Positions 1 to 1,816 of a stretch of 1,816 nt of DNA are shown piece by piece. Source of the stretch: Escherichia coli (GTDB lineage: Bacteria > Pseudomonadota > Gammaproteobacteria > Enterobacterales > Enterobacteriaceae); NCBI RefSeq assembly GCF_003334815.1, contig NZ_QOWO01000092.1; one strand, given 5' to 3'. Under the pieces are notes generated by a model. That model saw nothing but the letters and a program-made list of their open reading frames with translations. It did no database searches and was not told the origin of the DNA. Position numbers and translations under genes: made by a program. Position 1 is the first letter of the stretch. Each line of letters begins with the position of its first letter.

Positions 1-140
1 TATGGTCTGGCAGGGCTGGGGATGGGTAAGGTGAAATCTATCAATCCGTACCGGCTTACGCCGGGCTTCGGCGGTTTCACACCTGTGCTACATGTAACCA
101 CCGTATGCCGCCTTACATGCGCTGACGCGCATTATTTGCC

Positions 141-169
141 TTGTTCCGTCTGAAAGTAATCACTATGAT
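141..169 (+). promoter_or_regulatory. Putative sigma70 promoter of the TA operon: -35 TTGTTC (141-146), 17-bp spacer, -10 TATGAT (164-169)
   Basis: Hexamers read directly from the sequence. The -10 matches TATAAT at 5 of 6 positions, the -35 matches TTGACA at 4 of 6, and the spacing is 17 bp. It sits 27 bp upstream of the antitoxin start. Not experimentally supported; an alternative -35 (TTGCCT, 136-141) is also possible. Confidence 0.3.
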
Positions 170-195: not shown

Positions 196-480
196 ATGCA
201 AATGAAAAACAATACCGCACAGGCAACAAAAGTAATTACCGCGCATGTGCCATTACCTATGGCTGATAAAGTCGACCAGATGGCCGCCAGGCTGGAACGC
301 TCCCGGGGCTGGGTTATCAAACAGGCGCTTTCTGCATGGCTTGCCCAGGAGGAGGAGCGTAATCGCCTGACGCTGGAAGCCCTGGACGATGTGACATCCG
401 GACAGGTTATCGACCATCAGGCTGTACAGGCCTGGGCGGACAGCCTCAGTACTGACAATCCGTTACCGGTGCCACGCTGA
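196..480 (+). CDS. parD: Type II antitoxin, ribbon-helix-helix (CopG/ParD-like) family
   Basis: 94-aa ORF starting ATG 196 (alternative in-frame ATG at 202). The N-terminus has an RHH-like layout: a short beta-strand (KVITAHVPLPM), then helices with a G-x turn (ADKVDQMAARLERSRGWVIKQALSAWL), resembling the IKQ(Y)AL motif region of RK2 ParD as recalled. The TGA stop (478-480) overlaps the ATG of the downstream ParE-like toxin at 480-482, the classic antitoxin-first coupled TA arrangement. Size and acidic C-terminal tail fit a toxin-binding domain. The symbol is a family-level assignment, not an ortholog call. The Shine-Dalgarno is weak, so the start codon is uncertain. Confidence 0.75.
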   Translation: MQMKNNTAQATKVITAHVPLPMADKVDQMAARLERSRGWVIKQALSAWLAQEEERNRLTLEALDDVTSGQVIDHQAVQAWADSLSTDNPLPVPR

Positions 481-755
481 TGGAACTGAAGTGGACCAGT
501 AAGGCGCTTTCTGATTTGGCGCGGTTATATGATTTTCTGGTGCTGGCCAGTAAACCTGCTGCCGCCAGAACGGTACAGTCCCTGACACAGGCACCGGTCA
601 TTCTGTTAACTCATCCACGTATGGGAGAACAGTTGTTTCAGTTTGAACCCAGGGAGGTCAGACGGATTTTTGCTGGCGAGTACGAAATCCGTTACGAACT
701 TAATGACCAGACTATTTATGTATTGCGCCTGTGGCACACACGAGAAAACAGGTAG
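480..755 (+). CDS. parE: Type II toxin, RelE/ParE superfamily (ParE-like)
   Basis: 91-aa ORF. The C-terminal segment (QTIYVLRLWHTRENR) fits the ParE-type hydrophobic-x-hydrophobic-R-hydrophobic-x-H-x-R pattern, and the size (~90 aa) is typical. The start ATG shares one nucleotide with the antitoxin stop (TGATG at 478-482), implying translational coupling. GC content matches the upstream antitoxin. The symbol is a family-level assignment. Confidence 0.8.
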   Translation: MELKWTSKALSDLARLYDFLVLASKPAAARTVQSLTQAPVILLTHPRMGEQLFQFEPREVRRIFAGEYEIRYELNDQTIYVLRLWHTRENR

Positions 756-860: not shown

Positions 861-1139
861 ATGAATTACGATGAAATAACGAAAATTACCGCTGAACGTA
901 TTAGCGACTACATGACTGAAGCAGTTAATACAGACTCTATTGCCGTTGCGGAAATGTTTCATAACGCTGCATGGGGAGTGCGAACATTGTGGTTTGAACT
1001 CGTCACAAAAATAGATATGGATATGCATAAAAAGAACGGGTATGCGAGTTATGATCTTAGAAGGAAAATCGAAATGCAGCATGAAGAGTTTCAGAAAATG
1101 ACAGAGCGCGAGCAAGTGCCTTTATTGAAATCGCCATAA
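861..1139 (+). CDS. Hypothetical small protein (92 aa), no family recognised
   Basis: ATG at 861 is preceded by a canonical Shine-Dalgarno AGGAG (851-855) with a 5-nt spacer. The ORF ends in three tandem in-frame stops, TAA TAA TAG (1137-1145). The translation has balanced, mildly acidic composition and looks protein-like, unlike the antisense shadow ORF. It is AT-richer (~44% GC in block 901-1000) than the TA operon. I recognise no homology from memory. Confidence 0.55.
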
Positions 1140-1333: not shown

Positions 1334-1603
1334 TTACTTTTTCATGACCGAACCAGAAATATTGCGCGTCAATAAGAGACATTGTGTAAACTCAGTCCTT
1401 TTATCTGGCAGGTTAACCCCTATCAATCTTAGGATGAAACCACGCCATCCTCTGTTTGCCTGGTTATTAATTTCATAAAGACGATTGTTTTCCTCTCGTA
1501 GTTTTGTCCACTCTAAACAAAGTGTTATATCATCCAGTTCTGTGATGTGTTTCACTTTTCCATTGACAGTTACAGTGTTTATTCCATTTCCTGTGATCAT
1601 CAT
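1334..1603 (-). CDS. Hypothetical protein (89 aa), minus strand, coupled to an upstream ORF
   Basis: ORF starting ATGATG (1603..1598), with AAGG 6 nt upstream as a weak Shine-Dalgarno, and stop TAA at 1336..1334. The first ATG overlaps the TGA stop of the upstream minus-strand frame (ATGA, 1603..1600). The N-terminal half (MMITGNGINTVTVNGKVKHITELDDITL...) looks protein-like and the region LREENNRLYEINNQ looks helical. The competing + strand ORF 1290..1478 starts with TTG and looks less protein-like. Very AT-rich, and no family recognised. Confidence 0.4.
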   Translation of the reverse strand: MMITGNGINTVTVNGKVKHITELDDITLCLEWTKLREENNRLYEINNQANRGWRGFILRLIGVNLPDKRTEFTQCLLLTRNISGSVMKK

Positions 1604-1816
1604 CTTATGCCTTTTTTATCTTCATTTGGGACCGTGCTTTTCTTCGGAGTATCACTATTCGTTAACTGCTGTTTATCAATAAAATTCCTGATGTTATCAA
1701 GTGCTTCCTTTGTTTTTAGAATGTTATACAGAAATACAAGTATACAATCAGGAGAATAGGTAAAATCCATAATACTATAGCTAAAAAAATATATACGGGG
1801 ATCAGGCGTCTGTATG
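1600..1816 (-). CDS. 3' portion of a minus-strand ORF that extends beyond the window; alternatively a 56-aa ORF from ATG 1770
   Basis: The minus-strand frame is open for 72 codons from the window edge (1816) to TGA at 1602..1600. That is unlikely by chance in ~30% GC DNA (order 0.5% under a simple composition model I estimated by hand). The C-terminal sequence (…ILKTKEALDNIRNFIDKQQLTNSDTPKKSTVPNEDKKGIR) looks protein-like. The in-window ATG at 1770 has no Shine-Dalgarno, so the true start is probably upstream of the window. Confidence 0.3.
   Translation of the reverse strand, partial: IQTPDPRIYFFSYSIMDFTYSPDCILVFLYNILKTKEALDNIRNFIDKQQLTNSDTPKKSTVPNEDKKGIR

What the first reader, a model, noticed from the sequence alone, without database searches (positions are those of the whole stretch)
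1334..1816. Translationally coupled minus-strand ORF pair in the AT-rich segment: candidate uncharacterised two-gene module or frameshifted pseudogene
On the minus strand, a frame open from the window edge (1816) ends with TGA at 1602..1600, and this overlaps the ATG at 1603..1601 of an 89-codon ORF (1603..1334), giving an ATGA overlap. Together that is about 161 codons of open frame in ~30-35% GC DNA, where stop codons are frequent, so real coding sequence is more likely than chance. An ATGA junction is the hallmark of tightly coupled small operons such as toxin-antitoxin, immunity or defence gene pairs. A single ancestral gene broken by a 1-nt frameshift would look the same. I recognise no homolog for either product, and the upstream partner is cut off by the window, so this is the most promising but least resolved element here.
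Basis: partly seen in the sequence, partly recalled or inferred. Interest (0 to 1): 0.55.

Follow-up and report, generated by a model that had tools for sequence, protein, structure and literature searches.

The report
Broken yafA plus intact yaeB
The two overlapping minus-strand reading frames are yafA and yaeB, two already catalogued accessory genes of unknown function on IncI1-type E. coli plasmids, and in this copy yafA is broken by a 223-base deletion, so this is ordinary plasmid backbone rather than a new toxin-antitoxin or defence module.

Summary
The ATGA junction and the 89-codon ORF are at the stated coordinates. The window matches IncI1-complex plasmids at 100% identity. It lies downstream of repA/repZ and carries a CopG–RelE/ParE pair, a 92-aa ORF, then yaeB and yafA on the minus strand, just downstream of fopA (yafB).

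The downstream ORF is YaeB (88 aa). It belongs to a real but unannotated family of plasmid proteins under strong purifying selection (ω 0.05–0.17). tblastn finds it in about 3,700 PLSDB plasmids.

The upstream frame is not an intact gene cut by the window edge. Intact YafA is a 164-aa hydrophobic-hairpin protein. This copy has a 223-bp internal deletion (junction 1724|1725). The true yafA frame stops after 51 codons, at 1718..1716. The frame open to the window edge is a chimera: 41 real C-terminal codons plus out-of-frame sequence.

The same deletion occurs in four plasmids from separate sources, and yaeB is intact in all four. R64-type plasmids show the reverse, intact yafA with yaeB deleted. 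Each gene also occurs alone on other plasmid backbones.

The pair is therefore not one frameshifted gene and not an obligate toxin–antitoxin or immunity pair. No Pfam, NCBIfam, PADLOC, PHROG, PDB or fold match exists. Function remains unknown, and novelty is low.

The parts
1334..1600 (-). yaeB coding sequence. It is 88 aa from ATG 1600..1598, or 89 aa from the alternative in-frame ATG 1603..1601, with stop TAA at 1336..1334. The gene is intact.
   Evidence: ORF listed. It is identical to WP_000627829.1 as annotated. UniProt names it YaeB. It belongs to a conserved family with core ω of 0.05-0.17. The AF2 model has pLDDT 81: a beta-hairpin followed by two helices.
1600..1724 (-). 3' remnant of yafA: codons 124-164 plus stop TGA 1602..1600, which overlaps the yaeB start. 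It is no longer in frame with the yafA start.
   Evidence: DNA alignment with intact allele L002. tblastn places aa 124-164 at L001 7725..7603, which is window 1725..1603.
1724..1725 (.). Junction of a 223-bp deletion inside yafA. The deletion removes codons about 50-123, which cover the second hydrophobic segment and most of the conserved cytoplasmic domain.
   Evidence: The exact 40-nt junction is found in 1 of 5,426 complete E. coli genomes. It is also in 3 of 72,556 PLSDB plasmids, including an ECOR 3 plasmid and an E. fergusonii plasmid.
1725..1816 (-). 5' part of yafA, codons 19-49 of the real frame. The true start codon lies 55 nt beyond the window edge.
   Evidence: tblastn places aa 1-49 at L001 7871..7725.
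1716..1718 (-). Premature stop (TAA) reached by the real yafA frame after the deletion. The product is 51 aa, MCDSE...YFCITF. The stop lies 112 nt upstream of the first yaeB ATG, so stop/start coupling with the real yafA frame is lost.
861..1139 (+). A 92-aa ORF convergent with yaeB. It is a neighbour worth noting, not part of the pair.
   Evidence: It is 37% identical (E 4e-17) to the 87-aa gene immediately upstream of the yaeB homologue in an IncX-like plasmid.
196..755 (+). CopG-family antitoxin (196-480) and RelE/ParE toxin (480-755), joined by their own ATGA overlap. This is context only: a genuine type II TA pair in the same window.
   Evidence: ORFs. RefSeq annotation.

Best explanation
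The segment is the distal end of the fopA(yafB)–yafA–yaeB gene string of an IncI1-complex conjugative plasmid. yafA and yaeB are two separate accessory backbone genes that this plasmid lineage has placed end to end. The yafA stop overlaps the yaeB start (ATGA), so in the intact allele ribosomes finishing yafA can restart on yaeB.

YafA (164 aa) is predicted to be an inner-membrane protein. It has one strongly hydrophobic helix, a second aromatic-rich hydrophobic helix, and a conserved cytoplasmic helical domain with the motif SGKRMTGRDEMDI. YaeB (88 aa) is a small soluble protein with a beta-hairpin and two helices.

In this window yafA is a pseudogene. A 223-bp internal deletion shifts the frame, translation stops after 51 codons at 1718..1716, and yaeB has to rely on its own weak AAGG ribosome-binding site.

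Neither gene needs the other. The pair is not a toxin–antitoxin, immunity or known defence module. Both are dispensable accessory genes whose biochemical function is still unknown.

Shown here: gene identity, the deletion, the reading frames, conservation, selection and independent occurrence. Inferred: co-transcription with fopA, translational coupling, membrane location, and neutrality of loss.
For: Identity and context.
- The window matches IncI1-type plasmids at 100% identity.
- The gene order is repA, CopG/RelE, ORF92, yaeB, yafA, ProQ/FinO (fopA), yagA, colicin Ia.
- fopA, yafA and yaeB share a strand. The fopA–yafA gap is 55 nt and holds no promoter-like site.

Deletion.
- It is seen in the alignment, and PGAP marks the gene 'frameshifted'.
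- The truncated product is shown.
- The junction is present in four independent plasmids, all with yaeB identical.

Two genes, not one.
- The IncK2/Z plasmid has both genes with a 4-nt spacer.
- YafA homologues occur without yaeB in L011-L013.
- The R100-type homologue YfhA sits between traR and traC in IncF plasmids.
- YaeB homologues occur without yafA in IncX-like, IncFIB(K), IncHI2 and other plasmids.
- R64-type plasmids keep yafA while a 119-nt deletion reduces yaeB to ATG ATG ATA TGA.

Real coding sequence.
- The yaeB core has ω of 0.05-0.17, and yafA has ω of 0.26-0.64.

Dispensability.
- Of 960 complete E. coli genomes with a match, only 382 have at least 80% of the pair. About 319 carry the R64-type form and the rest carry assorted truncations.
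- In the pESBL transposon screen, yafA scored 0.96 in the column I read as 'not required' (PMC4288162).
- Gerovac et al. 2020 describe yafA as of unknown function (PMC7491321).

Physical predictions.
Against: - No experiment or transcript data were available, so the operon structure and the coupling are inferred from geometry alone.
- The YafA model has low confidence (pLDDT 55).
- The second hydrophobic segment falls below a standard Kyte-Doolittle threshold, so the hairpin topology is uncertain.
- The overlap recurs in several hundred plasmids. Distant YaeB-like domains are fused to multi-pass membrane regions (P0267, P0273). Both facts leave room for a real YafA–YaeB functional partnership.
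- R64-type YafA is only about 61-65% identical to this one, so its tolerance of yaeB loss may not transfer exactly.
- I did not confirm the column meanings in the pESBL table.
Confidence: 0.8

Rival explanations
1. YafA and YaeB form a functional complex. YafA acts as a membrane anchor whose cytoplasmic domain binds or regulates the small soluble protein YaeB. The ATGA coupling would set their stoichiometry, and the deletion allele would be a loss-of-function variant of a two-part system.
For: - The overlap or near-abutment is kept in at least 382 complete E. coli genomes and 669 PLSDB plasmids.
- Distant YaeB-like domains are fused to C-terminal multi-pass membrane regions (P0267, P0273).
- One is fused after a two-helix membrane N-terminus (P0215).
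- In an IncX-type plasmid, a small 87-aa membrane protein lies 46 nt upstream of the yaeB homologue.
Against: - Each gene is widespread without the other.
- P0215's N-terminus is not homologous to YafA (hhalign probability 0.3%), and it comes from a 1-kb contig with 1.4x coverage.
- yaeB DNA is about 97% identical between the IncI1 and IncK2/Z plasmids, while YafA is only about 60% identical. The two genes have separate histories.
- No co-folding could be run.
Confidence: 0.15
2. The pair is a toxin–antitoxin, immunity or abortive-infection module. One product, for example the membrane protein YafA, would be toxic and the other would neutralise it.
For: The two genes are small, co-directional and overlap. 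They sit on a plasmid next to a genuine TA pair, and one product is hydrophobic.
Against: - No toxin, antitoxin or defence family matches in Pfam, NCBIfam, PADLOC or PHROGs.
- Both single-gene states are naturally stable. yafA deleted with yaeB intact occurs in four plasmids, including one from an ECOR strain. yafA intact with yaeB deleted occurs in hundreds of R64-type plasmids.
- Both families occur alone on other backbones.
Confidence: 0.04
3. The ORFs are spurious open frames in AT-rich non-coding DNA, or a single gene split by a frameshift.
For: The upstream 72-codon open frame is unremarkable by chance, reached in 23% of shuffles. Part of it is indeed non-native frame.
Against: - The yaeB family is conserved across genera with ω of 0.05-0.17.
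- yafA is conserved from IncI to IncF plasmids at 33-65% identity, with ω below 1.
- An 89-codon ORF arises in only 0.7% of shuffles.
- No fused homologue exists, and the IncK2/Z plasmid has a spacer between the genes.
Confidence: 0.01

Closest known systems
YafA of IncI1 plasmids (R64, ColIb-P9, pCol1B9, pESBL) and its IncF homologue YfhA of R100
   Same: The retained parts of the upstream gene are 100% identical to YafA (WP_001582574.1). They share the N-terminal SEAEKI.FILNKHE motif, the hydrophobic hairpin and the C-terminal LL.RL.SGKRMTGRDEMDI motif. YfhA is 33-37% identical over the full length.
   Different: The window copy lacks codons 50-123 and is frameshifted, so it is a pseudogene. 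In IncF plasmids the homologue sits inside the tra operon between traR and traC, not behind fopA, and has no yaeB next to it. Note a name clash: the 'yfhA' of the IncI leading region studied in PMC10104558 is a different, ParB-like gene.
YaeB (UniProt C1J8K1 and relatives; WP_000627829.1), an unannotated family of about 84-aa plasmid proteins
   Same: It is identical to the annotated protein. It carries the family core G-INTV..-EVKHITELD..-EW.KLK.EN..LY..N...N.GWRGFILRLIGV.LPD.
   Different: The IncI1/IncK version has a tail (residues about 71-88) that is not homologous to the family consensus '..IKGINAK.ESIYPE'. The cause is probably an old deletion of about 23 nt with a frameshift. This protein is unrelated to the chromosomal E. 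coli gene once called yaeB (that remark is from my own knowledge).
Type II toxin–antitoxin operons, such as the CopG–RelE/ParE pair at window 196-755
   Same: Two small co-directional plasmid genes are joined by an ATGA overlap.
   Different: There are no toxin or antitoxin domains. The two genes are not obligately linked, and either can be lost while the other persists.
The fopA (yafB) locus of pCol1B9, which encodes a FinO-domain RNA chaperone that helps Inc RNA repress repZ
   Same: yafA and yaeB lie directly downstream of fopA on the same strand, in the same plasmid family.
   Different: Nothing links YafA or YaeB to RNA binding or copy-number control. Co-transcription with fopA is inferred, not shown.

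Membership tests
Type II toxin–antitoxin module | Two small adjacent co-directional genes with overlapping or abutting stop and start codons | tested here: met
   TGA 1602..1600 overlaps ATG 1603..1601.
Type II toxin–antitoxin module | At least one product belongs to a recognised toxin or antitoxin superfamily, or has a DNA-binding antitoxin fold | tested here: not met
Type II toxin–antitoxin module | Obligate co-occurrence: the neutralising partner is not lost while the toxic partner stays intact | tested here: not met
   yafA deleted with yaeB intact occurs in four plasmids. yafA intact with yaeB deleted occurs in R64-type plasmids. Both families occur alone elsewhere.
Type II toxin–antitoxin module | Growth arrest when the toxin is expressed, rescued by the antitoxin | not testable with these tools
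   This needs an induction experiment.
Known anti-phage defence systems (PADLOC-DB v2) | A protein matches a defence-system model | tested here: not met
   No families matched YafA, YaeB or ORF92 at E up to 1.
YafA/YfhA plasmid membrane-protein family | Sequence homology across the N-terminal motif, the hydrophobic hairpin and the C-terminal SGKRMTGRDEMDI domain, in one open frame | tested here: not met
   Homology is clear: 100% identity for aa 1-49 and aa 124-164. However, codons 50-123 are deleted and the frame is broken. The window copy is a pseudogene derived from this family, not an intact member.
YaeB small plasmid-protein family | A protein of about 84-88 aa with the conserved core GINTV…EVKHITELD…GWRGFILRLIGV.LPD | tested here: met
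   All invariant core positions are present. The profile search recovers the family. The protein is identical to WP_000627829.1.
   No such ORF was found in IncI1, IncK2/Z, R64-type, IncF, IncX-like or other loci. The only fused protein, P0215, has an unrelated N-terminus.

The most novel reading that the evidence does not exclude
The YaeB-like domain has no entry in Pfam, NCBIfam or the PDB. It is under strong purifying selection and is present in about 5% of PLSDB plasmids. It may be a new cytoplasmic adaptor that works with small plasmid-encoded membrane proteins. In that reading YafA would be its IncI1 partner, and the system could belong to the Hha/H-NS-linked 'stealth' or establishment gene sets of conjugative plasmids.
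Probability: 0.12. Interest if true: 0.45.

Novelty: already known. Interest (0 to 1): 0.2.

Why it matters
It matters little as a discovery. Both genes are already annotated on hundreds of sequenced IncI1-complex plasmids and have names (YafA, YaeB). The window merely carries a rare deletion allele.

Three results are useful.
- The natural reciprocal knock-outs (yafA deleted with yaeB intact, and yafA intact with yaeB deleted) argue against the toxin–antitoxin reading that an ATGA overlap invites.
- YaeB is a widespread, strongly conserved plasmid protein family with no database model. tblastn finds it in about 3,700 PLSDB plasmids across IncI, IncX-like, IncFIB(K) and IncHI2 backbones.
- YafA links to R100 YfhA inside the IncF tra operon.

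Both families are reasonable targets for anyone cataloguing uncharacterised backbone genes of resistance plasmids.

Tried and rejected
Family and profile searches
- Pfam gave nothing significant for YafA and YaeB. It also gave nothing for the fused relatives P0273 and P0267.
- For YafA, YaeB and ORF92, NCBIfam, PADLOC and PHROGs gave nothing below E 0.1.
- PDB profile searches gave E of 0.066 or worse.
- Rfam found no RNA family anywhere in the window.

Structure
- The YafA AF2 model was too poor (pLDDT 55) to use for a fold search.

Homology ideas that failed
- I tested whether P0215, a membrane protein fused to a YaeB-like domain, has a YafA-like N-terminus. hhalign gave 0.3% probability, so I rejected this.
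- I tested whether the 85-aa gene upstream of the Klebsiella yaeB homologue belongs to the ORF92 family. BLASTP found no similarity.

Signal scans
- The promoter and terminator scans found no terminator after yaeB and no promoter-like site between fopA and yafA. These scans are weak evidence.

Literature
- No paper assigns a function to yafA or yaeB.
- The 'yfhA' studied in PMC10104558 is a different, ParB-like leading-region gene, so I set it aside.

Deletion
- I considered whether the deletion is an assembly artefact. I rejected this because the same junction occurs in four records from different laboratories and hosts.
- There is no microhomology at the deletion ends, so how the deletion arose is unexplained.

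Full report
**What is in the sequence**

On the minus strand, an ATG at 1603..1601 opens an 89-codon ORF that ends at 1336..1334. A second ATG at 1600..1598 gives the 88-aa product that RefSeq annotates. That frame has no stop back to the window edge, a run of 72 codons.

I shuffled 1334-1816 (35% G+C) 3,000 times. An ATG-to-stop ORF of at least 89 codons appeared in 0.7% of shuffles. An open frame of at least 72 codons appeared in 23%. Only the downstream ORF is statistically notable.

**Where the window comes from**

The whole 1,816 bases match many E. coli plasmids at 99.9-100% identity. RefSeq annotation of two of them, ColIb-P9 and pCol1B9 of Salmonella SL1344 gives this order:
- repA/repZ
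- CopG-family antitoxin and RelE/ParE toxin (window 196-480 and 480-755)
- a small ORF (861-1139)
- on the opposite strand, an 88-aa hypothetical protein, a 164-aa hypothetical protein and a ProQ/FinO-family protein
- yagA and the colicin Ia/Ib genes

The ProQ/FinO protein is FopA (YafB). It is the RNA chaperone that helps Inc antisense RNA repress repZ (PMC7491321, PMC9977716). The 164-aa gene is yafA, annotated by name and called 'of unknown function' in PMC7491321. UniProt calls the 88/89-aa protein YaeB.

**The upstream frame is a deletion pseudogene**

Nearly all best hits aligned to the window in two pieces spanning 2,039 bases rather than 1,816. Alignment with an intact plasmid (L002) shows that the window lacks 223 bp inside yafA. 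The junction lies between window positions 1724 and 1725.

Intact YafA has 164 aa. In the deletion allele:
- codons 1-49 are followed by two foreign codons and TAA at window 1718..1716;
- codons 124-164 survive at 1724..1603 but are out of register with the start.

It joins 41 genuine C-terminal codons to about 30 codons of a non-native frame across the yafA 5' region. PGAP marks the gene 'frameshifted' in the one RefSeq E. coli record collinear with the window.

The exact 40-nt junction occurs in only 1 of 5,426 complete E. coli genomes. It also occurs in 3 of 72,556 PLSDB plasmids: an ECOR 3 plasmid, and E. fergusonii and E. coli plasmids from UK cattle farms. The two I opened have an identical, intact yaeB. 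The deletion is therefore a real, inherited, rare allele and not an assembly error. No microhomology flanks it.

**Two genes or one?**

They are two genes.
- An IncK2/Z plasmid has both genes. A 1-nt difference moves the yafA stop and leaves a 4-nt spacer instead of the overlap.
- In R64-type IncI plasmids (pN580, pESBL), YafA is a 169-aa protein about 61-65% identical to this one. A 119-nt deletion has reduced yaeB to ATG ATG ATA TGA followed by a startless remnant.
- More divergent YafA homologues (151-155 aa) stand alone in other plasmid contexts.
- A homologue 33-37% identical is R100-type YfhA. It lies between traR and traC in IncF tra operons and has no yaeB nearby.
- YaeB homologues of about 84 aa occur without yafA on several backbones:
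  - IncX-like plasmids;
  - an Erwinia plasmid;
  - Klebsiella IncFIB(K) plasmids;
  - IncHI2 plasmids;
  - an IS-rich chromosomal island.
- No locus has a single ORF spanning both genes.

**Are they real genes?**

Yes.
- The YaeB core (residues 1-67) has dN/dS of 0.05-0.17 wherever dS is measurable, and dS is saturated otherwise. Twenty positions are invariant across 19 sequences from many genera.
- YafA has dN/dS of 0.26-0.64. Its cytoplasmic motif (…LL.RL.SGKRMTGRDEMDI…) is strongly conserved and its hydrophobic region is more variable.

**What the products look like**

YafA has one strongly hydrophobic helix at about residues 23-50. A second, aromatic-rich hydrophobic stretch at about 57-80 falls below a standard hydropathy cut-off. 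An all-helical C-terminal region follows. The AF2 model is of low confidence (pLDDT 55).

Neither protein matches Pfam, NCBIfam, PADLOC, PHROGs or PDB sequences. The IncI1 YaeB tail (residues about 71-88) does not match the family's consensus tail. Comparison with an IncX-type copy suggests an old deletion of about 23 nt with a frameshift.

**How it most likely works**

fopA, yafA and yaeB share a strand. The fopA–yafA gap is 55 nt with no promoter-like site, and the only promoter-like sites lie upstream of fopA. I infer one transcript.

In the intact allele the stop/start overlap lets terminating ribosomes restart on yaeB. Its own Shine-Dalgarno sequence is weak (AAGG, 6-9 nt upstream). In this window the yafA frame ends 112 nt earlier, so coupling is lost and yaeB depends on that weak site.

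**Why the toxin–antitoxin or immunity reading fails**

The reading fails on natural genetics.
- If YafA neutralised YaeB, the four plasmids with yafA deleted and yaeB intact should not persist.
- If YaeB neutralised YafA, the hundreds of R64-type plasmids with yaeB deleted should not persist.

The locus is also structurally polymorphic:
- 960 complete E. coli genomes have a match;
- 382 of them have at least 80% of the pair;
- about 319 have the R64-type form;
- the rest carry assorted truncations.

In the pESBL transposon screen, yafA fell in the class I read as not required for maintenance or transfer (PMC4288162). The best reading is two dispensable accessory genes of unknown biochemical role that this lineage has juxtaposed.

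**What remains open**

A weaker rival is that YafA anchors or regulates YaeB. Two facts support it: the coupling recurs, and distant YaeB-like domains are fused to multi-pass membrane regions (P0267, P0273, and one doubtful metagenomic fusion, P0215). Independent distribution of the two genes argues against it, as does their discordant divergence. yaeB DNA is about 97% identical between the IncI1 and IncK2/Z plasmids, while YafA is about 60% identical. I could not co-fold the two proteins.

**Verdict**

The 'uncharacterised two-gene module' consists of two known, named and functionally uncharacterised IncI1 backbone genes, one of them a deletion pseudogene here. Novelty is low. The one mildly interesting by-product is that YaeB is a large, well-conserved plasmid protein family with no database model.

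Noticed in passing
window 861-1139 (+); L015 3726-3989: The 92-aa ORF convergent with yaeB is called a partial pseudogene by PGAP. It is 37% identical (E 4e-17) to the 87-aa gene lying 12 nt upstream of the yaeB homologue in an IncX-like plasmid. The two families are therefore neighbours on two unrelated backbones, in tandem on one and convergent on the other.
   Followed up: partly
L015 3469-4255; L022 2919-3758; L023 3387-6185: yaeB homologues lie in strings of small genes that include hha. The order 'hha – small ORF – yaeB-like' is seen in an IncX-like plasmid and in a Klebsiella IncFIB(K) plasmid. In an IncHI2 plasmid the homologue lies about 2 kb from an hns gene. This may link the family to plasmid 'stealth' gene sets.
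   Followed up: partly
L020 3001-3477; L021 3001-3474: YafA has a full-length homologue, 33-37% identical, between traR and traC of R100-type IncF tra operons. It is named YfhA or YafA in UniProt and is absent from F itself according to PMC2762410. The name yfhA is also used for an unrelated ParB-like leading-region gene.
   Followed up: partly
window 1334-1390 (-): The last 18 or so residues of IncI1/IncK YaeB are not homologous to the family's consensus tail (…IKGINAK.ESIYPE). Another frame of the window reads IKGLSLHNVSY*, and DNA comparison with L007 suggests an old deletion of about 23 nt with a frameshift. The amino-acid differences among IncI1/IncK copies fall mostly in this tail.
   Followed up: partly
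L004 3005-3130: In R64-type IncI plasmids a 119-nt deletion leaves yaeB as ATG ATG ATA TGA plus a startless remnant of codons 42-75. This is the reciprocal of the window's allele.
   Followed up: yes
proteins P0267, P0273, P0215 (L014 300-962): Distant YaeB-like domains are found fused in two ways. Some sit in front of a C-terminal multi-pass membrane region of about 120 aa. One sits behind a two-helix membrane N-terminus, but that one comes from a 1-kb metagenome contig with 1.4x coverage and could be a sequencing artefact.
   Followed up: partly
window 196-755 (+): This CopG-family antitoxin and RelE/ParE toxin pair has its own ATGA overlap at 477-480. ColIb-P9 and pCol1B9 carry a different pair (YacA/YacB) and an extra 3'-5' exonuclease gene at the same position, so this part of the IncI1 backbone is mosaic.
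   Followed up: no
window 1-150: Two RefSeq records annotate a 'replication-associated protein RepA4' under the start of the window. A terminator-like hairpin lies at 117-132 (+).
   Followed up: no
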